Shown: positions 1 to 8,739, counted from the stretch's first letter. The stretch is 8,739 nucleotides of DNA from a virus (IMGVR_UViG_2681813233_000012:1-8739); one strand, 5' to 3'. The notes: generated by a model from the letters alone, not told the origin. Translations and numbers: made by a program.

Positions 1-39
1 TAAGTTGGAGTCATTACCGACGATGTTGACGGGCAGGAG

Positions 40-1866
40 ATGCCAGGGCCCAACGAAAGCGACAATTTCCCAGTAGAATCTGCGACGGCAAATACCGTAG
101 TAAGTGGTGATTATGCTGGAGGCCAGATAGCGATGAAAATCGTCAAGCAGGCTGAGTTCGACTACTTCATGGGGCTCGTGCTACCGCATTCTGTCACCTT
201 TACAATTAATGTCACCTACAACACTACATCGGGCAGCGTTACAGAAGATGTGCTTTTCTCAGGTACGCTGATTTCTGCTGTAGAGAGTGATGATGGTTCC
301 TTGATAGACCATGTTCAGTGGTACACGTTCACCATGACAGATTTGCAGGGACCGCCAACAGTTCCATCTACTGCCACCATTAACACGACAAAATTCATTC
401 TCAATGATAACGAGGCGCTTGTTGTGGGGCCTTTCTTCTCGCCTGTTGAGTCAACTGAGCTGTGGCTGCATACACAGTCATCACTTGGTGGCGGTAACTG
501 GACGGACTGGACGGTAACAATCTGGAAAATTGACGACGATTACAATCAGATCCCCGGAACTCAGCAGGCCTTCACCTATCATCAGGGAACGCCGCATAAG
601 TCGACCAGCGAAGTGTTTTATCGCACCGATAAAATAATTCCAGCAGGAGGGTTTGGTAAATACGCCATCAACTTCCAGCGTACAAACAACTCCAATGATG
701 CCTCTATCCTGAAGGTCGAAGAGATTCACGCCGTTAATATTCGCAGCAATGTGGTTCACCCGACTGATACGCTTGTTCGTGTGAAGGTCAGGGCGACAGA
801 GAATGCACTGGGTAGCCGTGACCGCAAATACAACGCCATGGTGACTCGCCACACCATCAGTTACAACCTGACGACACAGTCCGTGGATTACACATTACGG
901 CCGTCTCGGTCGTTTGCTGACGCGGTGGCGCATACCTGGCTTGTAATGGGAGGCCAACCAGAAAACAGTATTGATCTGTACGGCCTGTACTCTATCGTGG
1001 AAAGCCTGCCTGATGAGCGGCTGGGCTACTTCGACTACACGTTTGACGATGAGAACGACTCACTTGGTGACAGGGTGCAGGCGATCTGCAATGCAGCATC
1101 CGTCATGGCGTACTGGGATGACGGTGTGCTGACATTCACCCGCGACCAGAAGGTTGATTATCCTGCTGCTGTATTCAACCGGGCCAACATGAAGACAGAC
1201 GAGTACAAAATTACGTACGAAGCCACTCTTCCCGGAGGTTACGACGGCGTTCAGGTCTCCTACGTTCATCCGACTACGAATAACAAGACGTACATCAACT
1301 ACCGCGTTCTGAACGGCGTTATCGTCGAGCAGGAAGCTGAGAACCCAAACAAGCTTGAGATAGTAGGATTCCGTAACGAGTACCAGGCTCGTGAGCGAGC
1401 GTTACGCGAAACAAAGCGGCTTATCTACTCCCGGGTGAAGATGAATGCCAAGGTATTTGAGGACGGGATTATCCAGGTGGGCAGCGTTATCCAGATGCCG
1501 GATATCTACGACAGCAACCAGCAGCAGGGTTACATCACCGGCCGCACTGGGAATAACTTCGATACGAGCGAACCAATCAAGTTTACCGGAACGATGTATG
1601 TTCTGGTTACTGACAGCTTGGGCAATCCAACACTGCGTTATCCGGCAACGGCCCGCAGCGACACGAAATATGGATTTACTGCAGCAATACCCACCATTCA
1701 GCTCAACATATGGAACGGAGACACTGTGCAGCTCCCGTCGCGCTATCTCATAGCGACCGTAGAAGAGTTAGATAGTCAATTATGGACAGTCAACAGCATC
1801 AAACCGAACACTGACAATACGGTATCCCTGATCGTCGCAGAGTACAGCGACTCAGTCTACGGATAG
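40..1866 (+). CDS. Phage virion structural protein, 608 aa (tail-associated or ejection-type protein; family not recognised)
   Basis: Long uninterrupted ORF with ATG at 40 and an in-frame TAA at 1..3 just upstream, so the ORF is complete. AGGAG lies immediately 5' of the ATG. The protein is Thr/Asn/Ser-rich and beta-like, and sits directly upstream of the tailspike gene. Product assignment is by position and composition only. Confidence 0.8.
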   Translation: MPGPNESDNFPVESATANTVVSGDYAGGQIAMKIVKQAEFDYFMGLVLPHSVTFTINVTYNTTSGSVTEDVLFSGTLISAVESDDGSLIDHVQWYTFTMTDLQGPPTVPSTATINTTKFILNDNEALVVGPFFSPVESTELWLHTQSSLGGGNWTDWTVTIWKIDDDYNQIPGTQQAFTYHQGTPHKSTSEVFYRTDKIIPAGGFGKYAINFQRTNNSNDASILKVEEIHAVNIRSNVVHPTDTLVRVKVRATENALGSRDRKYNAMVTRHTISYNLTTQSVDYTLRPSRSFADAVAHTWLVMGGQPENSIDLYGLYSIVESLPDERLGYFDYTFDDENDSLGDRVQAICNAASVMAYWDDGVLTFTRDQKVDYPAAVFNRANMKTDEYKITYEATLPGGYDGVQVSYVHPTTNNKTYINYRVLNGVIVEQEAENPNKLEIVGFRNEYQARERALRETKRLIYSRVKMNAKVFEDGIIQVGSVIQMPDIYDSNQQQGYITGRTGNNFDTSEPIKFTGTMYVLVTDSLGNPTLRYPATARSDTKYGFTAAIPTIQLNIWNGDTVQLPSRYLIATVEELDSQLWTVNSIKPNTDNTVSLIVAEYSDSVYG

Positions 1867-1888
1867 AACCTAATCCGAATATCACAAT

Positions 1889-1911
1889 CCGGCCACTGAG
1901 CCGGTTTTTTT
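1889..1911 (+). terminator. Rho-independent terminator candidate (CCGGC / GCCGG stem, 6-nt loop, T7 tract)
   Basis: CCGGC at 1889..1893 pairs with GCCGG at 1900..1904, followed by TTTTTTT at 1905..1911, 23 nt after the stop of the 40..1866 ORF. Confidence 0.55.
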
Positions 1912-1922
1912 ATGGAAAAATT

Positions 1923-4298
1923 ATGGCCACCCAACCAACAAATAACGCAGTGCCAAGCGAATCACCCCGTGATCTGAAGTTTAACGCGGGGAAAATTGAT
2001 GAGTTCGTTACGTCTGAGAATCATGATTATGTTGACAGATTTGGCAATAAACATCGTACAATTGAAGGCATAAATTACGATTCGAACCAGGCAATTCTGA
2101 ATTATGGCTATATCACGAAGGATTCTTTTGAAGATGGCAGCACCATTAGCCTTGCTAACGAGTGCTTACGCTGGAAGAGCAACGGCGAGTACTACAGATG
2201 GGATGGGTCACTCCCCAAAGTAGTTCCCCCTGGCTCTACTCCGGAAGGCACTGGTGGGCTAGGGAAAGGTAAGTGGGTTGGTGTCGGAGATGCATCTTTG
2301 CGATCGGCAATGAAGAATGAGAATGGTACTGATTTAATTAATGGAACAAAATCTGTTGTTGGGTCAGTTACAAGATCACTAACAGATATGTTGTCAGACA
2401 AGATATCCGTGCGGGATTTTGGCGGAATTGATGACTATGATGGAACAAATGCATCAACATGCACTAACAACAGAATTCCATTTCAACGGTATTTTGAATA
2501 TCTTAATTCAATTGGCGGTGGCGATCTAAATATTCCACGTAAATTAACCGGGAAATATTTTATTAGTGGTGATGACCACACACAAGTTACCTCTAAAGTT
2601 CGTTTAAATACTGACGAAGGTGTATCTATACATCTTGATTTCTCTGGAGGTGCTTCAAATACTCCATTTGCCAATCTCGATTTAAGGGCATCGAGCCAGA
2701 TAAAGATTGAGTATGTTAATTTTGGTTATCCGTCATATGTTGGTGGTAGCGTAGACACGCCATTTAGTGACTCTTTGCAAACCATGAACAATGGTGATGG
2801 TATTTACACGGTGCCAGAAGTACTATCAGGTAGTGATTTTAAAGTCATTTCATTGGGAAATAGCTCTGTTGAAATACCACCGTTATCAACATCCGGAGAT
2901 ACAATCTCTTTTAATGGCGGAGGGGTTCCAACTGCAGCAGTCATCAGCGTGACTCCTGGTGACGAAATTATGGCGTTAATAGGCTCGAATTCGCTTGGGG
3001 GAATTATTGCCGGTGTCGTCACGGTTAATGGCTATGCTTATGTTTCTCAAGATACTTCTAGTGGTAATATTACCCTTGCAGAAGGCACGATAGGGCAGCC
3101 AAATATACTAACTGGTCTTAATTATGCTCTCATGGATCAGCTAAGAGATCGGTTTGACCGTGCTATCATAACAGTAAAAATTACTTCATCGAGAACCTTT
3201 ACCGTTATGGCTAACGGTCTGGCAATATGCAGTCATACCACCAGGTCTAGTATTCTTGGCGCTTGTCTTGGTACTTCCGACATTAATAGTATTGTGAATG
3301 TATCACAAATGTCTCGAGTTAGAGGGCATAGTTTTTCCGGGTCCAAGCCTTTGAGGATATTGGTTTGCGGAGATTCAATTACCGATCAAAATAATCAATA
3401 TTCATGGGCCAAATATCTCCAGATGCAGTTGGGCTCAGCTGGCGTTAACATTGCAGAGATAAATAATTTAGCAGTGGCTGGACAGACAGCGGCCCAACAA
3501 CTCAGCATCCTGAAAACTGTTGGTGTAGGATATGATATCTGCCTGATACAGGTTGGTGTAAATGATGTTCAGTTACAGACTCCGGTAGCATCCTTCATTT
3601 CGACAATAAATGAAATGGTCACTTACGCGAAGGGGATTGGAGCATTTCCGATTGTTGGTGTACCCACGGCTTTTTATTCTCTTGCAGAGGCGAATGCTAA
3701 TGGGCAAACGGGAGGGCAAAACACATCAAACAACTCTTCGATAGGGATGTACCGATCGCTTCTTATTCGTGCTGTTGCAGCAGCTGGCGGAATTGTTAAC
3801 CTTGAGCCTATGAAAGGACATGGAGCTATGACGGCTAAGTGGCTGTCACTGAAACCGTATGCCGTCAGCGATAGCATCGTGCTGGACAATATTCACCCCA
3901 CTCCATATGGGTCGATGCTCCTGGCACAAGGATATGCGCGATGCATTCTTGGATGGCTTACTAGGCCTGACATGACACCAACGGAAAGCTTTGAATTTAT
4001 TCCTAGCGGGTGGCTTAGCCCAGGATTTGGCGAAACATCGATCCCTAAAATTAAAGGAAGGGAGTTCTCTGGGTTGATAAGTCTGCATGCAACAAATATC
4101 AATGATGGTTCAGTGGCCTTCACTTTGCCACCATCATTTAAAGTAGATAACGTTAAGATGCTTGCGGTGACAGGGACAAACAGTTCCGGGCTTCCGGTAG
4201 GTGTTTGTAATTTATATGTTGGGACAGACGGGAAGTGTTACTTCTTTAATATTCCAGAAGGAGTTACCCAAGTATCAATGGACGGTGTGGTTTTATAG
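1923..4298 (+). CDS. Tailspike / tail fibre protein with a C-terminal SGNH-hydrolase (polysaccharide esterase) domain, 791 aa
   Basis: N-terminal ~115 aa adaptor-like region, then a segment typical of the start of pectate-lyase-like beta-helix tailspikes (ISVRDFGGIDDYDG...IPRKLTGKYFISGDD). All SGNH blocks are present in order: GDSIT (Ser485, nt 3375..3377), block II Gly in NLAVAGQT (Gly520), GVNDV (Asn547), DNIH (Asp655/His658, nt 3885..3896). A further ~130-aa C-terminal domain follows. Confidence 0.85.
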   Translation: MATQPTNNAVPSESPRDLKFNAGKIDEFVTSENHDYVDRFGNKHRTIEGINYDSNQAILNYGYITKDSFEDGSTISLANECLRWKSNGEYYRWDGSLPKVVPPGSTPEGTGGLGKGKWVGVGDASLRSAMKNENGTDLINGTKSVVGSVTRSLTDMLSDKISVRDFGGIDDYDGTNASTCTNNRIPFQRYFEYLNSIGGGDLNIPRKLTGKYFISGDDHTQVTSKVRLNTDEGVSIHLDFSGGASNTPFANLDLRASSQIKIEYVNFGYPSYVGGSVDTPFSDSLQTMNNGDGIYTVPEVLSGSDFKVISLGNSSVEIPPLSTSGDTISFNGGGVPTAAVISVTPGDEIMALIGSNSLGGIIAGVVTVNGYAYVSQDTSSGNITLAEGTIGQPNILTGLNYALMDQLRDRFDRAIITVKITSSRTFTVMANGLAICSHTTRSSILGACLGTSDINSIVNVSQMSRVRGHSFSGSKPLRILVCGDSITDQNNQYSWAKYLQMQLGSAGVNIAEINNLAVAGQTAAQQLSILKTVGVGYDICLIQVGVNDVQLQTPVASFISTINEMVTYAKGIGAFPIVGVPTAFYSLAEANANGQTGGQNTSNNSSIGMYRSLLIRAVAAAGGIVNLEPMKGHGAMTAKWLSLKPYAVSDSIVLDNIHPTPYGSMLLAQGYARCILGWLTRPDMTPTESFEFIPSGWLSPGFGETSIPKIKGREFSGLISLHATNINDGSVAFTLPPSFKVDNVKMLAVTGTNSSGLPVGVCNLYVGTDGKCYFFNIPEGVTQVSMDGVVL

Positions 4299-4302
4299 TT
4301 CC

Positions 4303-4326
4303 GTGTGGGAGGTCTCCCTCCCACAC
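4303..4326. terminator. 10-bp GC-rich hairpin between convergent genes (candidate bidirectional terminator)
   Basis: GTGTGGGAGG at 4303..4312 is the exact reverse complement of CCTCCCACAC at 4317..4326, with a 4-nt loop. It lies between the tailspike stop (4298) and the stop of the - strand gene (4333). There is no clean U-tract on either side, so terminator function is inferred. Confidence 0.5.
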
Positions 4327-4332
4327 TCACTA

Positions 4333-5412
4333 TTAATTGTAAGGGGTTTCTCTTTCCATTTCTAAAACTATGGCTCTGAAATTTCTATTAAACTCATAAC
4401 CAGGTTTATTATGTAACTCTGCATTTATGCAGTCTCCTAGAAGAGAACTTCTGATTCTAGCACCATACCCATTGGTATGATAAGCAGAGTCCATAAATAA
4501 TTTTCCTCCAAGATTAGACGCGCTTGGTGCGCAAATAACGTTAATACCAGCAACAGAAAGCAAACCCTTAAGTTTCATTAACGACTGCATGGTTTGTCCA
4601 TTATCAGTGTCAAACCCCGGATTTCGCATCGTAACAGGCCATGTAATAAATAATTTCCCACCTTTATTAGAAACAAAATTATTTATTTCCTTGAGTGTTG
4701 TATATGTATGTTCAGATATTTTAGGAATGTCTGAGTTATATGTAAATGTGCCATTATACACAGAATCGTAAACAGTTTTACCGTCAATAAAAACATTGAT
4801 GTCACCGTTTTTATTTAGACTTTTATAACTGTACCCATTATATTCACCATTGGTAGAGTTAAGATGATTGATGACATCACTCAACGGTGAAACCAGGCCT
4901 TTATCTTCTGCATTAAATCCTTCAACTAACCTTTTGGGGCTAACATTCATCATGAACTTTATACGGTTATAAATGTTGATGCTTGATAGGTAATCCTGGC
5001 CCCACCCCAATATATTATTAACAAACCAATCAGTTGGTGCTTCCGTACGTGTGTAGTACTCATACTCAAGCGGCATTACAACGATATCACCATTTTTAAA
5101 ATGCTTTTTTAATTGATAAAAATGATAGTTTATATCTAGCTCTGCATGCGTTGCAATATTTACAACTGGAAGTGATGTTTTATGGGAAATAATTTCACTA
5201 TTTATAGAAAATAAGCTATTCGACCCGCTAGAGATTATTATTTTTTTCCCATTTATCCTGTCAGCGGCAACGCCTTTAAAATCAATTACGTTCTTTAGCC
5301 ACCACCCACCTACAACCTGCTTTCCTTCCTGCATTTTGAAAGCATAAATAAACGTCCCAGCGGCAAATGCAAGTATTGCTAAGAATATAGAGAAGCTGAA
5401 TTTATAATTCAC
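4333..5412 (-). CDS. Membrane-anchored SGNH/DltD-like (PatB/AlgJ-class) protein, predicted periplasmic partner of the upstream MBOAT acyltransferase, 359 aa
   Basis: GTG start at 5410..5412 preceded by AAGGG 6 nt upstream, 9 bp after the MBOAT stop, suggesting an operon. N-terminal hydrophobic anchor (FSIFLAILAFAAGTFIYAF). Ser-rich motif IISSGSNS (res 59..66) near the N-terminus and DSAYH (Asp308/His312) near the C-terminus, the SGNH-like order of nucleophile then Asp/His. Very AT-rich. Confidence 0.6.
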   Translation of the reverse strand: MNYKFSFSIFLAILAFAAGTFIYAFKMQEGKQVVGGWWLKNVIDFKGVAADRINGKKIIISSGSNSLFSINSEIISHKTSLPVVNIATHAELDINYHFYQLKKHFKNGDIVVMPLEYEYYTRTEAPTDWFVNNILGWGQDYLSSINIYNRIKFMMNVSPKRLVEGFNAEDKGLVSPLSDVINHLNSTNGEYNGYSYKSLNKNGDINVFIDGKTVYDSVYNGTFTYNSDIPKISEHTYTTLKEINNFVSNKGGKLFITWPVTMRNPGFDTDNGQTMQSLMKLKGLLSVAGINVICAPSASNLGGKLFMDSAYHTNGYGARIRSSLLGDCINAELHNKPGYEFNRNFRAIVLEMERETPYN

Positions 5413-5421
5413 TGTTCGCCC

Positions 5422-6267
5422 TTAAAAATTGAAGTAAATAAAGGATCCGGGAGCCGCCCCACCCAAGGAAGCAGTCACTGCAATGCAAACGCCAAAGGCA
5501 CACAGGCATGGAGCAAGCAGATTCCACGCTATACCACTCTTATGTTCTTTGGTCATCTCCATGAAAACATTAGAATTTACATTAATTAAGCACGTCATAA
5601 TGGCAATGGCGCAAACAGCTATCATATAGAAACCACCTTTCGATGCCTCATAGAGGAAAGAGTCCGCAAAAGGTTGAGCATATTTAAATCCGGAAACCAA
5701 AGAATCGTAACCAGCAAACATTTTCTTTAGCAAACTAAAAGCATCATTTAAGTTATCTGTTCTGAAGAAAATCCAGGTGATATTCACGTAATTGAATGTT
5801 ATAAACCAACCTACAACGCTCGGCATGCGAAAGCCATTTTGTGACCAATACCTGTGAATGACAAGCCCAGCCCCGTGTAAAGCGCCCCACGCCAAAAAAT
5901 TCCATCCAGCTCCATGCCAGAAACCGCCGATCAAAAACGTCAAAAACAGGTTTAGATATGTGCGTAATACACCATTTCGGTTTCCGCCAAGAGGAATGTA
6001 GACATAATTCCTGAGCCACGTGGAAAGGGTAATGTGCCAGCGTCTCCAGAAATCTTGAAGGTCTGTTGCTATGTATGGTGAATTGAAGTTGATAGGCAGC
6101 ACAACGCCAAACAGAAGGGCCGAGCCAATCGCCATGTCAGTATATCCGGAGAAATCAAAGTATAACTGGATACTGTATGAGAGGCTGGTTATCCATGCCT
6201 CCAAAGCACCAAGGGCTGAGATATTTGCATAACCTTGATCCGCTATAGAGCCAAAATATGAAGACAA
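5422..6267 (-). CDS. MBOAT-family membrane-bound O-acyltransferase (AlgI/DltB/PatA-like), C-terminal portion; the frame is open upstream to 6357
   Basis: Contains the MBOAT signature region: YFDFSGYTDMAIG, FWRRWHITLSTWLRNYVYIPLGGNR and GGFWHGAGWNFLAWGALHG (conserved His). The ORF-track start at 6267 is a TTG; the same frame stays open to a TAA at 6358..6360. Confidence 0.8.
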   Translation of the reverse strand: MSSYFGSIADQGYANISALGALEAWITSLSYSIQLYFDFSGYTDMAIGSALLFGVVLPINFNSPYIATDLQDFWRRWHITLSTWLRNYVYIPLGGNRNGVLRTYLNLFLTFLIGGFWHGAGWNFLAWGALHGAGLVIHRYWSQNGFRMPSVVGWFITFNYVNITWIFFRTDNLNDAFSLLKKMFAGYDSLVSGFKYAQPFADSFLYEASKGGFYMIAVCAIAIMTCLINVNSNVFMEMTKEHKSGIAWNLLAPCLCAFGVCIAVTASLGGAAPGSFIYFNF

Positions 6268-6334
6268 GACAACTTTTTTGAATATTCCGACACTAAATAT
6301 AAATACTGCGGGAACGAAATATTTCCCGAAATAA

Positions 6335-6859
6335 TTATCCCTTGAGTTGGTTTGTAATTACATCATAATTTGTTATCGGGCCAGAGATGAGCTTAGGGAA
6401 AAACAAAATGTAGCAGCAATAATTTAATATTGAAATGTTAGATATCTGTTTTCTATACAAACTAACTGATAAAGAAATCTGCTGAAATGTATAGAAGCTT
6501 ATGGCTAACGGCGCAATAACATTCATGTGGCCTATATTTAGGTTGAAAATACTAGATATGTTACTTGCAAAGAAGTTGCAGTATTTAAAATAACCAAGAG
6601 ATGCCACGTTAAATATAACTGATAATGCTACATATAATTTTGTCTTTTCAGATTTCATCATTGTTAATATTGCGTAGTTTATCAGCATCGATATCAACAA
6701 AAGAGGCAAGAAATTAAATGTGAAAAAAGTATAGAAATACAGGCTAGCGCAACAAATCCACACCTTGGAGAGAGCAATGTTAAATTTTTTCAGGAAAAGG
6801 AATATCAATACCACCAAAGGTAAAAACATTACAGAATATTCTAACGAGTTAAATAACAT
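6335..6859 (-). CDS. MBOAT-family O-acyltransferase, N-terminal portion (same gene as 5422..6267, separated by a frameshift)
   Basis: ATG at 6857..6859 with AAGG/AGGGA upstream. Typical AlgI/DltB N-terminus: multiple TM helices, ISFYTFQQISL and FFPKLISGPI motifs. Ends at TAA 6335..6337 in a frame offset by one from the C-terminal portion. Confidence 0.8.
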   Translation of the reverse strand: MLFNSLEYSVMFLPLVVLIFLFLKKFNIALSKVWICCASLYFYTFFTFNFLPLLLISMLINYAILTMMKSEKTKLYVALSVIFNVASLGYFKYCNFFASNISSIFNLNIGHMNVIAPLAISFYTFQQISLSVSLYRKQISNISILNYCCYILFFPKLISGPITNYDVITNQLKG

Positions 6860-7110
6860 GCCTTATCCCTTATATAAGTTATCAATCAAGTTTAAACCGC
6901 TATCAGAACACCAAATTCGCTTATCCATTCATGAACCTCTTCCACGCGCAATCTGCAACCACACTTAACATCCATGGTATTAACTTTAATTCCTAAAATT
7001 AGTGACATGGAGTTTACCACTACAGAGAAATCTGATCATTACTTGATCGAAAGAAGGGAACGTGGTGCTGTGCGTATACACAGCAATGGTCGGAGAAGCA
7101 TCTCTGATCC
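6860..7110 (-). promoter_or_regulatory. Putative regulatory region of the MBOAT operon (RBS, weak sigma70-like elements, cluster of three GATC sites)
   Basis: Shine-Dalgarno-like AAGG immediately 5' of the ATG. Candidate -35/-10 (TTTAAA / TATATA on the - strand) has sub-optimal spacing. GATC at 7034..7037, 7045..7048 and 7106..7109. No experimental support. Confidence 0.3.
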
Positions 7111-7405
7111 CATATGCTCGCTCTTTGGTGGTTTGCAGAATGGAAGGCGAGTTGAGGATAAGGCGATATCGTAAATCATCAACTCCTCACCTGGAGGAAT
7201 TGCAGACGGGGAGGCGTAAAAGATACCAGTGCACGATGACGGAACTAGCCCGGATGCGATCTTTGGGATGTTCACCTACATCATCCACGATGTTCGCTCT
7301 GACGAGTTCGACGACTTTCTGGTGATGTGATGGGGCATGGATGAGGAAAACATTATCGAAAACAACCCAAAACAGATGGAGTTGAGAGGTGTCTTGCACC
7401 ATTTC

Positions 7406-8560
7406 TCACAACTTACCATCAAGCCAGTCTGCCCACCACTGCATCATCTCCCTGCGCTTATCCATGTACTGAGCGTGATTGTATATCCCACGAATGGAGC
7501 CGCTGTTAGCGTGCGCCAGTTGCTTCTCTATGGCATCAGCAGGCCACTCGTGCTCATTCATTATTGTGCTGAACTGGTGCCGGAAACCATGTCCACTGGC
7601 GAGGCCCTCGTAGCCTATCTGCCGAATAACCAGCAGAACGGCGTTTTCACTGAGCGGCTTTGTTTTGTCATTGCGCCCGGCGAACACGAAGCTTGATATC
7701 GGCTGCGTTACCGGCCTCAGGGTTTCAAGCAAAGAGACAACTTGATCTGACATTGGGACAAGGTGGGGGCGGCGGCCTTTCATCACCTCTTCGGTGATCG
7801 TAATCGTCCTGGTTTCGAAATCGACGTTCGACCATTGCATAGACCTGAGTTCTTTAGTCCTGAGCACGGTGTACTGCAATACCTGCGTCGCAATCTTCGA
7901 TACGATGCTGCCAGAGAAGCCAGCCAGAGCCTTATTGAATTCCGGTATCTGGTCTGCAGGAAGGAAGGGGTAGTTCTTTTTCCGGTATCCCTTCATGGCA
8001 TCAGCAAGGTCAGGAGCCGGGTTATATTTCGCTCTCCCGGTAACTATCGCGTACCTGAATACTTCCCCGCACCTCCTCCGCGCCTTATTGGCCCGCTCCA
8101 TTGCTCCACGGTCTTCGAACCTGCGGATCACTTCCAGTATCTGCATTGGTTCTATCTCGTTAATCTCCATCCCGCCAATCAACGGCAGAATGTCATCCTG
8201 GAACATGCGTGACAGTTCGGTGCTGTACACTTCTGACCATACCTGTTTTTTGTGCTCGTACCATTCTTGGTATATAGAGCCGAAAGAGTTGTCTTTAACT
8301 GACAGTTTTTTAGCCTTTACAGGATCGACGCCGAGAGACACATCCTTTTTGGCAAGCCAAGCTTTGTCTCTGGCTTCCTGCAATGACATGAGCGGGTATT
8401 TGCCTACCGTCAGAACCTTCTCTTTACCATCGAGCTTGTAACGCAGCTGCCAGACTTTCTTTCCGGTAACCGGAACATAAAGGTACAGTCCGTTGCTGTC
8501 GAGTAGCCGGTACGGTTTATCTTTCGGCTTTGCCGCGTCGATCTGCTTGATGGTGAGCAT
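7406..8560 (-). CDS. intS: Tyrosine integrase, P4/IntS-type (site-specific recombinase with N-terminal arm-binding domain), 384 aa
   Basis: N-terminus MLTIKQIDAAKPKDKPYRLLDSNGLYLYV is typical of P4-family integrases. Catalytic-domain motifs HGFRHQFST (HxxR) and a C-terminal Tyr region (IRGIYNHAQY). It sits next to the 3' end of an argW-type tRNA in the same orientation, as for IntS of the E. coli K-12 CPS-53/KplE1 prophage. The symbol is assigned by this context and recalled similarity, not by a search. Confidence 0.9.
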   Translation of the reverse strand: MLTIKQIDAAKPKDKPYRLLDSNGLYLYVPVTGKKVWQLRYKLDGKEKVLTVGKYPLMSLQEARDKAWLAKKDVSLGVDPVKAKKLSVKDNSFGSIYQEWYEHKKQVWSEVYSTELSRMFQDDILPLIGGMEINEIEPMQILEVIRRFEDRGAMERANKARRRCGEVFRYAIVTGRAKYNPAPDLADAMKGYRKKNYPFLPADQIPEFNKALAGFSGSIVSKIATQVLQYTVLRTKELRSMQWSNVDFETRTITITEEVMKGRRPHLVPMSDQVVSLLETLRPVTQPISSFVFAGRNDKTKPLSENAVLLVIRQIGYEGLASGHGFRHQFSTIMNEHEWPADAIEKQLAHANSGSIRGIYNHAQYMDKRREMMQWWADWLDGKL

Positions 8561-8585
8561 GGGTAAAATTCCGGAGGGTAAAATT
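8561..8585 (+). repeat. Two direct copies of GGGTAAAATT (8561..8570, 8576..8585) abutting the int start codon
   Basis: Exact 10-bp direct repeat separated by 5 bp (CCGGA). On the - strand it reads AATTTTACCC-TCCGG-AATTTTACCC-ATG. Confidence 0.6.
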
Positions 8586-8595
8586 ATTTACTCGT

Positions 8596-8625
8596 TTTTT
8601 ACCCGCCGAAGCATGCGGCTGTCAA
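8596..8625 (-). promoter_or_regulatory. Candidate sigma70 promoter for int (-35 TTGACA, 18-bp spacer, -10 TAAAAA)
   Basis: On the - strand, TTGACA (8620..8625) and TAAAAA (8596..8601) are separated by 18 nt, ~35 nt upstream of the int ATG. Confidence 0.35.
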
Positions 8626-8634
8626 CGTTCTATT

Positions 8635-8714
8635 GCGAACTATGGCGAACTAATATTTTATTGAGAGCTTGCTGTGTAAGGGATTTTGCGAACTACTGCG
8701 GAGAGTGGCGAACT
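8635..8714 (+). repeat. Four direct copies of GCGAACT (8635..8641, 8645..8651, 8688..8694, 8708..8714): candidate integrase arm-type binding sites in the att region
   Basis: Heptamer repeated four times in the same orientation, in two pairs, between the tRNA 3' end and the int promoter. Arm-type sites of P4/lambda-family integrases are short direct repeats in this position. Confidence 0.5.
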
Positions 8715-8720
8715 GTGAAA

Positions 8721-8739
8721 TGGTGTCCCCTGCAGGAAT
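8721..8739 (-). tRNA. argW: 3' end of a tRNA-Arg gene (argW-type, anticodon CCU), partial: only the last 19 nt including CCA are in the window
   Basis: Reverse complement of 8721..8739 is ATTCCTGCAGGGGACACCA, which matches my recollection of the 3' terminus (T-arm, acceptor stem, CCA) of E. coli argW. The gene continues beyond the window end. Confidence 0.6.

What the first reader, a model, noticed from the sequence alone, without database searches (positions are those of the whole stretch)
4333..6900. Compositional island: the acylation module is far more AT-rich than its flanks
60-nt stretches counted by hand gave about 20..38 percent G+C inside the two module genes, against about 40..48 percent in the structural and tailspike genes and about 57 percent in the integrase. 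The module therefore looks like a separately acquired moron cassette, as is common for O-antigen-modifying genes.
Basis: seen in the sequence. Interest (0 to 1): 0.4.

Follow-up and report, generated by a model that had tools for sequence, protein, structure and literature searches.

The report
AT-rich tailspike-plus-acylation cassette, decayed prophage
The AT-rich stretch is real, but it is only half of a larger swappable block (the receptor-binding part of a phage tailspike plus a two-gene sugar-acylation module) at the end of a decayed E. coli prophage, the module's main gene is broken here, and the pattern is ordinary for phage genes that deal with the host's surface sugars.

Summary
Observation partly confirmed. 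Region 4333-6900 has 36.9% G+C against 46.6% on the left and 49.2% on the right. The right edge (about 6845-7090) is a true break in both G+C and codon usage. The left edge at 4333 is not. Third-codon-position G+C and synonymous codon usage of the module match those of the tailspike's receptor-binding part (permutation p = 0.70). The extra dip is predicted by the module's amino-acid make-up. The real left break lies inside the tailspike gene at about 2290, where homology to related prophages also stops.

The unit of exchange is therefore tailspike receptor-binding/esterase part plus module (about 2294-7090). It fills a slot that holds a different sugar-modifying gene in each of the three related E. 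coli prophages examined.

The module is an MBOAT acyltransferase with catalytic His317 and a C-terminal FIYFNF acyl-shuttle motif. Its partner is a membrane-anchored, SGNH-like protein from a large family with no database model. In this window the MBOAT is a pseudogene, caused by a 5-nt deletion that nine assemblies share. The prophage itself is a remnant: IS1-truncated tipJ, truncated humD.

The parts
1..18 (.). Terminal inverted repeat of IS1. It truncates tipJ and is where the contig ends.
   Evidence: Window 1-18 is the reverse complement of GGTAATGACTCCAACTTA. In L010 this sequence continues into an IS1 transposase gene. Homology to the intact prophage L005 starts at nt 18.
40..1866 (+). 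C-terminal 608 codons of the TipJ-family host-specificity tail protein (915 aa in L005). This is phage core composition.
   Evidence: NCBIfam NF040662, E = 1.6e-147. G+C 0.505, GC3 0.593. Codon usage matches the upstream tail genes of L005 (p = 0.58).
1923..2293 (+). Tailspike N-terminal adaptor part, including the Tail_spike_N domain (nt 2115-2291). It is conserved among related prophages and has intermediate GC3.
   Evidence: Pfam PF18668, E = 1.2e-17, aa 65-123. Homology to L004 and L007 ends at 2293; homology to L003 and L006 starts at 2091. GC3 0.46.
2294..4298 (+). Tailspike receptor-binding part with an SGNH/GDSL esterase domain (nt 3357-3920). It is the left half of the low-GC3 cassette.
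   Evidence: Pfam Lipase_GDSL_2, E = 7.5e-13, aa 482-663. Motifs GDSIT, GVND and DNIH are visible in the translation. GC3 0.347, falling to 0.22-0.30 at 2283-2880. Codon usage differs from TipJ (z = 9.7) but not from the module (z = -0.6).
4303..4326 (.). Perfect 10-bp G+C-rich hairpin in the 34-nt gap between the two convergent stop codons. Probably a bidirectional terminator, although no T-run follows it.
   Evidence: Sequence. RNA fold -21.8 kcal/mol, z = -4.2. Identical in L003 and L006. The consensus terminator scan did not call it.
4333..5412 (-). orf359: a membrane-anchored, SGNH/DltD-like protein, the putative acyl-transfer partner of the MBOAT. The gene is intact.
   Evidence: No Pfam, NCBIfam or PHROG hit. 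AlphaFold2 pLDDT 88.5. Best Foldseek PDB hits are SGNH esterases and DltD. G63-S64-N65 and H312 are invariant in 25 homologues. The gene lies directly downstream of an MBOAT in the window family, L007, L017 and L019/L020.
5422..6859 (-). MBOAT acyltransferase pseudogene. Two ORFs remain (6335-6859, 174 aa; 5422-6267, 281 aa). They are separated by a frameshift from a 5-nt deletion: a single TTGAG at 6342-6346 where L005 has TTGAGTTGAG.
   Evidence: Pfam MBOAT, E = 1.1e-28 on the C-terminal ORF. The gene is an intact 480 aa in L005, L007 and L003. Alignment. The same deletion is present in all nine contigs that carry the identical orf359. The product matches the intact protein up to residue 172; His317 and FIY477FNF lie downstream of the break.
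6860..7085 (.). AT-rich non-coding stretch upstream of the MBOAT start. It belongs to the cassette and is the presumed promoter region.
   Evidence: G+C 0.408 for 6860-7121. Homologous to L007 up to 7095. No consensus sigma-70 site was found there.
7086..7327 (+). Remnant of humD (umuD-like, S24 peptidase). Only residues 48-128 remain, with a frameshift near 7215. Phage core composition resumes here.
   Evidence: blastx against the HumD proteins of L007 and L004. DNA matches of 69-82% to humD/S24 genes of E. coli prophages. G+C change point at 7055.
7406..8560 (-). Tyrosine integrase (argW type).
   Evidence: Pfam Phage_integrase, E = 1.3e-35, plus arm-binding and central domains. 87.5% identical to the integrase beside tRNA-Arg in E. 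coli M37H. G+C 0.514, GC3 0.626.
8721..8739 (-). 3' end of the tRNA-Arg (argW) gene, that is, the attachment-site core at the contig end.
   Evidence: Window 8739 aligns to L004 10810, inside the tRNA-Arg annotated at 10792-10866. L008-L012 continue into yfdC, mlaA and fadL.

Best explanation
**Setting.** The window is a whole 8.7-kb contig (LOOX01000240.1 of GCA_001576375.1). It holds the right-hand end of a decayed siphovirus-type prophage integrated at tRNA-Arg (argW) of E. coli. The order is: IS1 end, truncated tipJ, tailspike, [orf359, MBOAT] on the opposite strand, humD remnant, integrase, att.

**The island.** The AT-rich stretch is real. It is the right half of one larger low-GC3 block of about 4.8 kb (about 2294 to about 7090). 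The block consists of the tailspike's receptor-binding/esterase part plus the convergent two-gene acylation operon. It is exchanged as a unit between phage backbones, with further recombination inside it. It occupies a slot (tailspike to humD) that holds a different glycan-modifying gene in each of the three E. coli relatives I examined. The module looks even more AT-rich than the tailspike only because its proteins are rich in residues with AT-rich codons. F, Y, M, I, N and K make up 34-46% of the module's residues (39-46% in orf359 and the MBOAT N-terminal part), against 27% in the tailspike.

**Mechanism of the module when intact (inferred by analogy with PatA/PatB).**
1. The MBOAT takes an acyl group, most likely acetyl from acetyl-CoA, at the cytoplasmic face.
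2. His317 passes it to Tyr477 of the C-terminal FIYFNF shuttle peptide.
3. That peptide hands it to Ser64 of the periplasmic, membrane-anchored SGNH-like orf359.
4. orf359 esterifies a surface polysaccharide, most probably the O antigen.
5. This changes the receptor that the adjacent esterase-bearing tailspike deals with.

**Status here.** In this lineage the MBOAT is cut after residue 172 by a 5-nt deletion, so the module is most likely inactive.

**Shown:** composition, boundaries, mosaicism, pseudogenisation, motifs, fold, gene linkage. **Inferred:** acyl donor, acceptor, biological role.
For: **Composition.**
- G+C and GC3 by gene.
- GC3 change points fall only at 1934 and 6845.
- Sliding GC3 falls from 0.41-0.49 to 0.22-0.30 at about 2290.
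- Codon-usage permutation tests.
- Expected against observed G+C given the amino-acid sequence.

**Boundaries from relatives.**
- L004 matches only 18-2293 and 7122-8739. L003 matches 2091-6859.
- L006 shares 2091-5412 at 95% on a different tail backbone, with a different tailspike N-terminus.
- L007 has the same architecture at about 72% identity, with intact MBOAT and humD.

**The same low-GC3 pairing of tailspike and modifying gene** is seen in L004, L022, L023 and L017.

**Module.**
- MBOAT Pfam hit. DltB structures at E = 4e-30 with the WHG histidine aligned.
- C-terminal FIYFNF against the FXYXXF shuttle motif, which is FIYANF in N. gonorrhoeae PatA (PMC12148441).
- orf359 fold and invariant Ser/His.
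- The partner gene lies immediately downstream of an FXYXXF MBOAT in four separate lineages.

**Pseudogene:**. **Host and remnant status:**
Against: - Raw G+C does drop significantly at 4333 (p = 4e-5).
- The module is also found beside a non-homologous P22-type tailspike, so it can move without this tailspike.
- Identity to L003 changes abruptly inside the MBOAT at about 6290 (93% down to 65-69%), so the block is itself mosaic.
- No promoter was identified for the operon.
- orf359 has only low TM-scores to SGNH structures (0.31-0.37 normalised by query) and no sequence-model hit.
- Nothing here shows which polymer is modified or with which acyl group.
- An acetyl-adding module beside an acetyl-removing tailspike is not self-evidently coherent.
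Confidence: 0.75

Rival explanations
1. The two module genes alone (4333-6900) are a separately acquired moron cassette. It was inserted between the tailspike and the integrase region, and its AT-richness marks its own foreign origin, distinct from the tailspike's.
For: - Raw G+C falls at 4333 (0.427 to 0.351, p = 4e-5) and rises at about 7055.
- A strong hairpin lies at the tailspike/module junction.
- A distant version of the same gene pair sits beside an unrelated P22-like tailspike.
- Midgardsormr38 has no gene between its tail protein and humD.
Against: - There is no GC3 or codon-usage break at 4333 (p = 0.23 and 0.70).
- The dip is predicted from amino-acid composition under tailspike codon usage.
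- The lowest GC3 in the window lies in the tailspike at 2283-2880.
- Homology to relatives breaks at 2091/2293, not at 4298-4333, and tailspike plus module are shared together by L003, L006 and L007.
- The slot is filled by another modifying gene in all three E. coli relatives examined.
Confidence: 0.15
2. There is no foreign origin at all. The low G+C is only a by-product of encoding membrane proteins rich in Phe, Ile, Asn, Lys and Tyr.
For: - GC1 and GC2 of orf359 and the MBOAT N-terminal part are very low (0.26-0.40).
- The low-N/higher-C G+C pattern of the MBOAT recurs in four lineages, so it is a property of the protein.
Against: - With the codon usage of TipJ plus integrase, the same proteins would give 0.458/0.505/0.414, against 0.351/0.435/0.310 observed.
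- GC3 is 0.31-0.45 against 0.59-0.63 in the core genes.
- Codon usage differs from the core with z = 8.6-10.2.
- The soluble tailspike part shows the same shift.
Confidence: 0.03
3. The module, when intact, acylates something other than the O antigen. Candidates are capsule, colanic acid, enterobacterial common antigen, cellulose or peptidoglycan. It may also transfer an acyl group other than acetyl, for example D-alanyl as in Dlt.
For: - The best NCBIfam and PDB matches of the MBOAT are DltB.
- The shuttle motif is shared with PatA, which acts on peptidoglycan (PMC12148441).
- Temperate Klebsiella phages pair SGNH receptor-binding proteins with capsule types and often encode acetyltransferases (PMC13123978).
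- The acceptor was not tested.
Against: - The DltB score (169 bits) is far below the equivalog cut-off of 375.
- No dltA, dltC or dltX-like genes are present.
- The MBOAT carries its own FXYXXF tail, which DltB lacks (PMC12148441).
- The position convergent on the tailspike and next to int/att is where I recall P22-like and Sf6-like phages carrying gtr/oac O-antigen genes (my own knowledge). In relatives that position holds AT3-type acyltransferases.
Confidence: 0.2
4. The break in the MBOAT gene is not a stable loss. It is either an assembly error or a reversible phase-variation switch at the TTGAG repeat.
For: The deletion removes exactly one unit of a tandem 5-nt duplication. That is the signature of strand slippage.
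Against: - The same one-copy state is present in all nine contigs that carry the identical orf359. They come from five NCBI assemblies and four independent read sets, so an assembly error is very unlikely.
- Two repeat units are far fewer than in known slippage switches (my own knowledge).
- The rest of the prophage is also decayed: IS1 in tipJ, and a truncated and frameshifted humD.
Confidence: 0.05

Closest known systems
PatA/PatB, and MBOAT-SGNH acyltransferase pairs in general (AlgI/AlgJ/AlgX, WssH/WssI, PatA1/PatB1), as described in PMC12148441
   Same: - A polytopic MBOAT with the universal catalytic His (His317 in the FWHG motif).
- A C-terminal FXYXXF acyl-shuttle hexapeptide: FIYFNF here, FIYANF in N. 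gonorrhoeae PatA and in the L017 homologue.
- An adjacent gene for a single-pass, membrane-anchored periplasmic protein with an SGNH-like fold and an invariant Ser and His.
   Different: - orf359 has no detectable sequence similarity to PatB, AlgJ or any Pfam/NCBIfam model.
- Its fold match is only moderate.
- It is carried by a prophage next to a tailspike.
- The acceptor polymer is unknown.
- The MBOAT is a pseudogene in this window.
DltB/DltD (teichoic-acid D-alanylation)
   Same: DltB is the closest solved structure to the MBOAT by sequence (8jem, E = 4e-30). DltD is the second-best structural match of orf359 (6o93, E = 9.4e-4).
   Different: - The host is Gram-negative.
- There are no DltA, DltC or DltX genes.
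- The shuttle motif is fused to the MBOAT rather than carried on a separate microprotein.
- The NCBIfam DltB score is far below the cut-off (169 against 375 bits).
Pseudomonas temperate phage JBD44 gp41 (MBOAT) + gp40, and relatives (LC3I3, JBD88b, DO4)
   Same: - The MBOAT shows 46-50% amino-acid identity over 64-73% of its length.
- It ends in FLYFNF.
- The layout is the same: MBOAT, then partner, convergent on a large neighbouring gene (gp39, 720 aa, annotated hypothetical; I take it to be a tail-fibre gene) and close to the integrase.
- The module has lower G+C (0.43) than the rest of the phage.
   Different: The partner gp40 is of the AlgJ type (YYKTDTHWN motif) and unrelated in sequence to orf359. 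The host and the phage backbone are different.
Classical serotype-conversion cassettes of enterobacterial prophages (as I recall them: Sf6/SfII oac-type AT3 acyltransferases, gtrABC)
   Same: - The genomic position between tailspike and integrase/att.
- Opposite-strand orientation.
- Low G+C.
- The presumed role of altering the phage's own receptor.
- The direct relatives L004 and L023 carry acyltransferase genes in exactly this slot; L004's product is annotated 'acyltransferase family protein', which I take to be AT3.
   Different: This is a two-protein MBOAT + SGNH-like system rather than a single AT3 or AT3-SGNH protein or a Gtr trio. No homologue of orf359 exists in 50,697 deposited phage genomes or in PHROGs.
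Morons (independent transcription units inserted between phage genes; see SfIV orf47-49 in PMC3851460)
   Same: Accessory genes that are not needed for phage growth. The orientation is opposite to the late operon. G+C is lower than in the phage core. A hairpin lies at the 3' end.
   Different: The composition break does not coincide with the module. The module is co-inherited with the tailspike receptor-binding part. It replaces other genes in a variable slot rather than interrupting adjacent genes. No promoter was detected.
SGNH-esterase tailspikes (phage G7C gp63.1 O-antigen deacetylase is the example I recall; SGNH receptor-binding proteins of temperate Klebsiella phages, PMC13123978)
   Same: The tailspike has a Tail_spike_N adaptor; the listed PDB match to chain 4qnl (a 'tail fiber protein') covers residues 58-133 at E = 9e-9. 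It also has a complete set of SGNH motifs.
   Different: Outside the N-terminal 140 residues there is no sequence match to any solved tailspike. The substrate is unknown.

Membership tests
MBOAT family (PF03062), bacterial FXYXXF subgroup (PatA/AlgI-like) | Significant match to the MBOAT profile | tested here: met
   PF03062 at E = 1.1e-28, 100.9 bits against a cut-off of 27, on ORF 5422-6267. DltB structures at E = 4e-30 with the intact L005 orthologue.
MBOAT family (PF03062), bacterial FXYXXF subgroup (PatA/AlgI-like) | Universally conserved catalytic histidine | tested here: met
   His317 in GGFWHGAGW aligns with the WHG histidine of DltB. It is encoded at window 5422-6267.
MBOAT family (PF03062), bacterial FXYXXF subgroup (PatA/AlgI-like) | C-terminal FXYXXF acyl-shuttle motif with an invariant Tyr (PMC12148441) | tested here: met
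   The protein ends ...GSFIYFNF*. The homologues end FIYFNF (L007), FIYANF (L017), FLYFNF (L019/L020, JBD44).
MBOAT family (PF03062), bacterial FXYXXF subgroup (PatA/AlgI-like) | One uninterrupted reading frame of about 480 codons | tested here: not met
   A 5-nt deletion at 6342 shifts the frame after codon 172 and gives a stop at 6335-6337. The gene is intact in L005, L007 and L003. So it is a member by descent but a pseudogene here.
SGNH hydrolase/transferase superfamily (orf359) | SGNH (flavodoxin-like alpha/beta) fold | tested here: inconclusive
   The AlphaFold2 model is confident (pLDDT 88.5, pTM 0.88). Top Foldseek PDB hits are SGNH enzymes (1deo at E = 1.7e-4, probability 1.00; DltD 6o93 at 9.4e-4; acetylxylan and sialate esterases). 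However, TM-scores are only 0.31-0.37 by query and 0.34-0.56 by target.
SGNH hydrolase/transferase superfamily (orf359) | Block I nucleophile Ser near the start of the catalytic domain, and block V His near the C-terminus | tested here: met
   G63-S64-N65 and H312 are invariant in 25 homologues that go down to 32% identity. The Asp three residues before the His (D309) is not invariant.
SGNH hydrolase/transferase superfamily (orf359) | Match to a curated SGNH/GDSL, DltD or AlgJ sequence model | tested here: not met
   No Pfam, NCBIfam or PHROG family, even at E <= 1. No PDB sequence match with the family profile.
Moron (independently acquired transcription unit in a phage genome) | Nucleotide composition distinct from both flanking phage genes | tested here: not met
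   It is distinct from the right flank. At synonymous sites it is not distinct from the left flank, the tailspike.
Moron (independently acquired transcription unit in a phage genome) | Inserted between genes that are adjacent in related phages | tested here: inconclusive
   The E. coli relatives L004, L022 and L023 all have a different modifying gene in the slot. Erwinia phage Midgardsormr38 goes from its tail protein straight to humD and int, but its tail genes are unrelated.
Moron (independently acquired transcription unit in a phage genome) | Own promoter and terminator | tested here: inconclusive
   A strong hairpin lies at 4303-4326 but has no T-run and was not called by the scan. No sigma-70 consensus site lies upstream of 6859, and promoter-like hits in the region are no more frequent than in shuffled sequence (9 against 10.9).
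Prophage serotype-conversion (receptor-modifying) cassette | Envelope-glycan-modifying genes located next to the tailspike/tail-fibre gene and the integrase/att end of a temperate phage | tested here: met
   Gene order in the window. The same order occurs in L005, L007 and L017, and in JBD44 next to gp39, a 720-aa hypothetical protein that I take to be a tail fibre. Integration at argW.
Prophage serotype-conversion (receptor-modifying) cassette | Demonstrated change of O-antigen or capsule chemistry in lysogens | not testable with these tools
   This needs LPS or capsule chemistry. In this window the MBOAT is broken, so no activity is expected.

The most novel reading that the evidence does not exclude
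The orf359 family has no Pfam, NCBIfam or PHROG model, yet it has 3,019 representatives of 50%-identity clusters at E <= 1e-10. It may be an undescribed class of SGNH-like acyl-transfer partners for FXYXXF-type MBOATs. In enterobacterial prophages it would form, with the adjacent esterase tailspike, a co-inherited 'write/erase' pair acting on the same acyl mark of the O antigen. The prophage would write the mark to mask the receptor, and the virion enzyme would erase it to gain entry. The two halves would therefore be exchanged together as one host-range cassette.
Probability: 0.3. Interest if true: 0.55.

Novelty: new member of a known kind. Interest (0 to 1): 0.3.

Why it matters
- **For the scan.** A raw G+C step at a gene boundary can come entirely from amino-acid composition. 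Third-position G+C and comparison with relatives moved the true boundary 2 kb to the left, into the middle of the tailspike gene.
- **For phage biology.** The result adds a clean example of a tailspike receptor-binding domain and a receptor-modifying enzyme sharing one compositional and recombinational block. This recurs in five backbones with four different enzyme types.
- **For annotation.** It flags a large unannotated protein family that always sits behind an MBOAT. It also identifies an MBOAT-type (rather than AT3 or Gtr) candidate O-antigen acylation module in E. coli prophages.
- **For this genome.** The module should not be scored as a functional serotype-conversion locus, because the MBOAT is a pseudogene inside a prophage remnant.

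Tried and rejected
- A tRNA scan of the window found nothing. Only the last 19 nt of argW are present.
- An Rfam scan of the whole window gave no match.
- A search for orf359 in the GTDB representative genomes by back-translated peptides found nothing.
- tblastn of orf359 against deposited phage genomes found no match.
- PHROGs had no family for orf359 or for the MBOAT.
- The plasmid collection held only distant MBOAT cores at 66-76% identity over about 300 nt, in unrelated bacteria. This was uninformative.
- The PDB sequence search with the orf359 family profile gave only a spurious aminotransferase hit at E = 1.4.
- The exact-sequence look-up of the Cedecea homologue P0007 returned nothing.
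- The consensus promoter/terminator scan gave hits no more frequent than in shuffled sequence, with none upstream of the operon.
- I considered that the G+C step at 6252 inside the MBOAT marks the recombination breakpoint seen against L003 at about 6290. I rejected this because the same N-low/C-high G+C pattern is present in L003, L007 and L017 and lies in codon positions 1 and 2.
- I considered using the host flank as a codon-usage reference. I set it aside because the five flanking genes gave an unexpectedly low GC3s of 0.45, probably driven by yfdF.
- I considered phase variation at the TTGAG repeat and rated it unlikely (see rival explanations).

Full report
**What the window is.**
The 8,739-nt window is a complete contig, LOOX01000240.1 of assembly GCA_001576375.1 (L013). 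Longer contigs carrying the same sequence continue into yfdC, mlaA, yfdF, fadL and fadI. That flank is 99.8% identical to E. coli chromosomes.

From left to right the window holds:
- the last 18 nt of an IS1 end;
- the C-terminal 608 codons of a TipJ-family tail protein (40-1866, +);
- a 791-aa tailspike with a Tail_spike_N adaptor and an SGNH/GDSL esterase domain (1923-4298, +);
- on the opposite strand, orf359 (4333-5412) and an MBOAT gene split into two ORFs (5422-6267 and 6335-6859);
- a 5'-truncated and frameshifted humD remnant (7086-7327, +);
- a tyrosine integrase (7406-8560, -);
- the first 19 nt of tRNA-Arg argW, by alignment to the annotated E. coli M37H prophage.

It is therefore the att-proximal end of a decayed prophage.

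**Checking the observation.**
The module interval 4333-6900 has G+C 0.369. The left flank (1-4332) has 0.466 and the right flank (6901-8739) has 0.492.

A likelihood-ratio change-point search on the raw sequence gives breaks at 1904, 6252 and 7055. The segments have G+C of 0.506, 0.414, 0.320 and 0.504. All breaks lie far above the permutation limit. So an AT-rich region is really present and is not chance.

- 60-nt windows inside the module span 0.22-0.57, and half of them exceed 0.38.
- TipJ averages 0.505, the tailspike 0.434 and the integrase 0.514. Only 2 of 19 integrase windows reach 0.57.

The module is also heterogeneous: orf359 is 0.351, the MBOAT C-terminal part 0.433 (the same as the tailspike, p = 0.80) and the MBOAT N-terminal part 0.309.

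**Where the compositional boundary really is.**
I separated codon positions.

| Gene or part | GC3 |
|---|---|
| TipJ | 0.593 |
| integrase | 0.626 |
| tailspike downstream of nt 2294 | 0.347 |
| orf359 | 0.311 |
| MBOAT C-terminal part | 0.450 |
| MBOAT N-terminal part | 0.389 |

- A change-point search on the GC3 series finds only two breaks, at 1934 and 6845, and none near 4333.
- A sliding GC3 profile shows intermediate values (0.41-0.49) in the tailspike's N-terminal adaptor. It then falls to 0.22-0.30 at 2283-2880, the lowest values anywhere in the window.
- A permutation test of synonymous codon usage, conditioned on amino-acid content, finds no difference between the module and the tailspike C-terminal part (z = -0.6, p = 0.70). 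Both differ strongly from TipJ (z = 9.7 and 10.2), and the module differs from the integrase (z = 8.6). TipJ matches the upstream tail genes of the intact relative (p = 0.58).
- If the module's proteins were encoded with the tailspike's codon preferences, their G+C would be 0.365, 0.406 and 0.305. The observed values are 0.351, 0.435 and 0.310. With the core genes' preferences the values would be 0.458, 0.505 and 0.414.

The step in raw G+C at 4333 (p = 4e-5) is therefore an amino-acid effect. Residues with AT-rich codons (F, Y, M, I, N, K) make up 39-46% of orf359 and the MBOAT N-terminal part, against 27% of the tailspike. The low-N/higher-C G+C pattern of the MBOAT recurs in four lineages and lies in codon positions 1 and 2. 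It is a property of the protein, not a sign of mosaicism.

**Boundaries from related sequences.**
- **L005.** An IMG/VR prophage contig is 100% identical to the window over 18-7400. It has an intact 480-aa MBOAT and a different integrase, 62-86% identical.
- **L004.** The E. coli M37H prophage at the same argW site matches only 18-2293 and 7122-8739. In between it carries another SGNH tailspike and a gene annotated 'acyltransferase family protein', which I take to be of the AT3 type.
- **L003.** E. coli YZ22MPE6 and LF4-1 carry just the block 2091-6859 next to an IS1, away from any prophage.
- **L006.** This contig shares 2091-5412 at 95% on a different TipJ/tape-measure backbone. Its tailspike has a different first approximately 100 residues.
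- **L007.** This contig has the whole architecture at about 72% identity, with intact MBOAT and intact humD.

The left breakpoints (2091 and 2293) flank the Tail_spike_N domain. The right breakpoint lies between the MBOAT start and humD (6859 to about 7090).

The block is itself mosaic. Identity to L003 falls from about 93% to 65-69% at about 6290, inside the MBOAT.

**A variable slot, not an insertion.**
In this prophage family the tailspike-to-humD slot holds a different gene set in each member examined:

| Prophage | Gene(s) in the slot |
|---|---|
| L004 | acyltransferase family protein (taken to be AT3) |
| L022 | GNAT acetyltransferase plus polysaccharide deacetylase |
| L023 | acyltransferase, behind a glycerophosphodiesterase-type tailspike |
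| window | MBOAT pair |

In every case the tailspike GC3 (0.34-0.39) equals that of the modifying gene(s) (0.33-0.40) and lies far below TipJ (0.59-0.71).

A distant MBOAT + orf359-type pair (37% identity) sits convergent on a P22-type tailspike in another prophage. It shows the same pattern: GC3 of 0.28, 0.24 and 0.31, against about 0.51 in host genes.

Low G+C of O-antigen-related genes is well known (my own knowledge; a low-G+C moron in a Shigella converting phage is described in PMC3851460).

**What the module is.**
- **The MBOAT.** It matches Pfam MBOAT and DltB structures at E = 4e-30, with the WHG histidine aligned. In the intact protein this is His317. It ends in FIYFNF. That is the FXYXXF acyl-shuttle motif, whose Tyr is auto-acetylated from acetyl-CoA in PatA and donates the acetyl to the SGNH partner PatB. 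N. gonorrhoeae PatA ends in FIYANF (PMC12148441).
- **orf359.** It has an N-terminal transmembrane helix and no hit in Pfam, NCBIfam or PHROGs. A word-indexed search found 24 homologues. A profile search found 4,627 cluster representatives at E <= 1e-3 and 3,019 at E <= 1e-10. G63-S64-N65 and H312 are invariant. A confident AlphaFold2 model (pLDDT 88.5) has SGNH esterases and DltD as its best PDB matches, though with modest TM-scores.
- **Linkage.** The orf359-type gene lies immediately downstream of an FXYXXF MBOAT in the window family, L007, L017 and an Arcobacter-like metagenome bin.
- **Precedent.** Pseudomonas temperate phages such as JBD44 carry a 46-50% identical MBOAT in the same convergent layout. 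Their partner is of the AlgJ type (DTHW motif) and unrelated to orf359.

The most likely mechanism is therefore that of PatA/PatB. Acetyl-CoA passes its acetyl group through His317 to Tyr477, then to Ser64 of orf359, then to a hydroxyl of a surface polysaccharide. By genomic position the acceptor is most probably the O antigen. Donor, acceptor and role are inferred, not shown.

**Status in this window.**
Relative to L005, the window lacks one copy of a tandem TTGAG (window 6342-6346). This shifts the frame after codon 172 and places a stop at 6335-6337. His317 and Tyr477 lie downstream, without a proper start.

The same deletion is present in all nine contigs that encode the identical orf359. 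They come from five NCBI assemblies and four independent read sets, so it is a lineage trait and not an assembly error.

Together with the IS1-truncated tipJ and the broken humD, this shows that the element is a remnant and the module is most likely inactive here. orf359, the tailspike and the integrase remain intact.

**Comparison with what is known, and verdict.**
Each ingredient is known:
- low-G+C conversion genes next to tailspikes;
- modular exchange of tailspike receptor-binding domains at the N-terminal adaptor;
- MBOAT-SGNH acyltransferase pairs;
- SGNH esterase tailspikes.

The specific combination appears not to be described:
- an MBOAT pair in the conversion slot of an enterobacterial prophage;
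- a partner from a large family without any database model;
- co-inheritance with an esterase tailspike.

No deposited phage genome and no PHROG holds an orf359 relative. My literature searches found no paper on a phage-borne MBOAT conversion module.

I rate this a new member of a known kind. The interest is modest, because the given finding (a compositional island) is ordinary, only partly correct, and concerns a pseudogenised module.

Noticed in passing
window 6335-6346 (single TTGAG at 6342-6346): The MBOAT gene carries a 5-nt deletion: one unit of a TTGAG tandem duplication that is present in L005. It causes a frameshift after codon 172 and a stop codon. The same allele is present in nine independent contigs.
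   Followed up: yes
window 1-18 and 40-1866: The contig starts with an IS1 terminal repeat that truncates tipJ (608 of 915 codons remain). In L008 and L009 the IS1 end lies about 200 nt further into tipJ, so different strains carry different IS1-mediated truncations.
   Followed up: partly
window 7086-7327: The humD (umuD-like S24 peptidase) gene is reduced to residues 48-128 and is frameshifted near 7215. About 150 nt of its 5' end, present in L007, are deleted. L005 has the same state.
   Followed up: yes
window about 7400-8560, compared with L005: The window and L005 are identical up to about 7400 and then diverge to 62-86% identity across the integrase gene. The integrase (and hence the att specificity) has been swapped, with a breakpoint at the integrase stop codon.
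   Followed up: partly
window about 6290, compared with L003 (10437-10774): Identity to the E. coli YZ22MPE6 copy drops from about 93% to 65-69% inside the MBOAT gene. L007 is closer (72-85%) over that N-terminal part. This indicates a recombination breakpoint within the gene.
   Followed up: partly
window 4303-4326: A perfect 10-bp G+C-rich palindrome (GTGTGGGAGG TCTC CCTCCCACAC) lies between the convergent tailspike and orf359 stop codons. It is 100% conserved in L003 and L006. No T-run follows it on either strand.
   Followed up: partly
L003 5183-10774 (E. coli YZ22MPE6; also LF4-1): The tailspike-orf359-MBOAT block occurs on its own, directly after an IS1. It lies between yiiG and the frv operon, with no other phage genes. 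The MBOAT ORF is open for 480 codons, although PGAP annotates only 418.
   Followed up: partly
alignment A1, columns about 400-520 (P0013, P0017, P0018, P0019, P0023): Five distant orf359 homologues, from Arcobacter-like and unassigned metagenome sequences, carry an extra C-terminal domain of about 120 aa. It matches Pfam T2SSG (type II secretion pseudopilin G) at E = 6.6e-5.
   Followed up: no
L022 3845-8789 and L023 8907-11956: Related E. coli prophages pair other tailspike types with other modifying enzymes in the same slot. One pairs a glycerophosphodiesterase-family tailspike with an acyltransferase. Another pairs a 690-aa tailspike with a GNAT acetyltransferase and a polysaccharide deacetylase, with an IS1 between them.
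   Followed up: partly
window 1923-2330 (tailspike residues 1-134): The tailspike N-terminus matches a recently solved 'putative tail protein gp13' (PDB 9occ) at E = 2e-47 over residues 1-134. I did not identify which phage that is.
   Followed up: no
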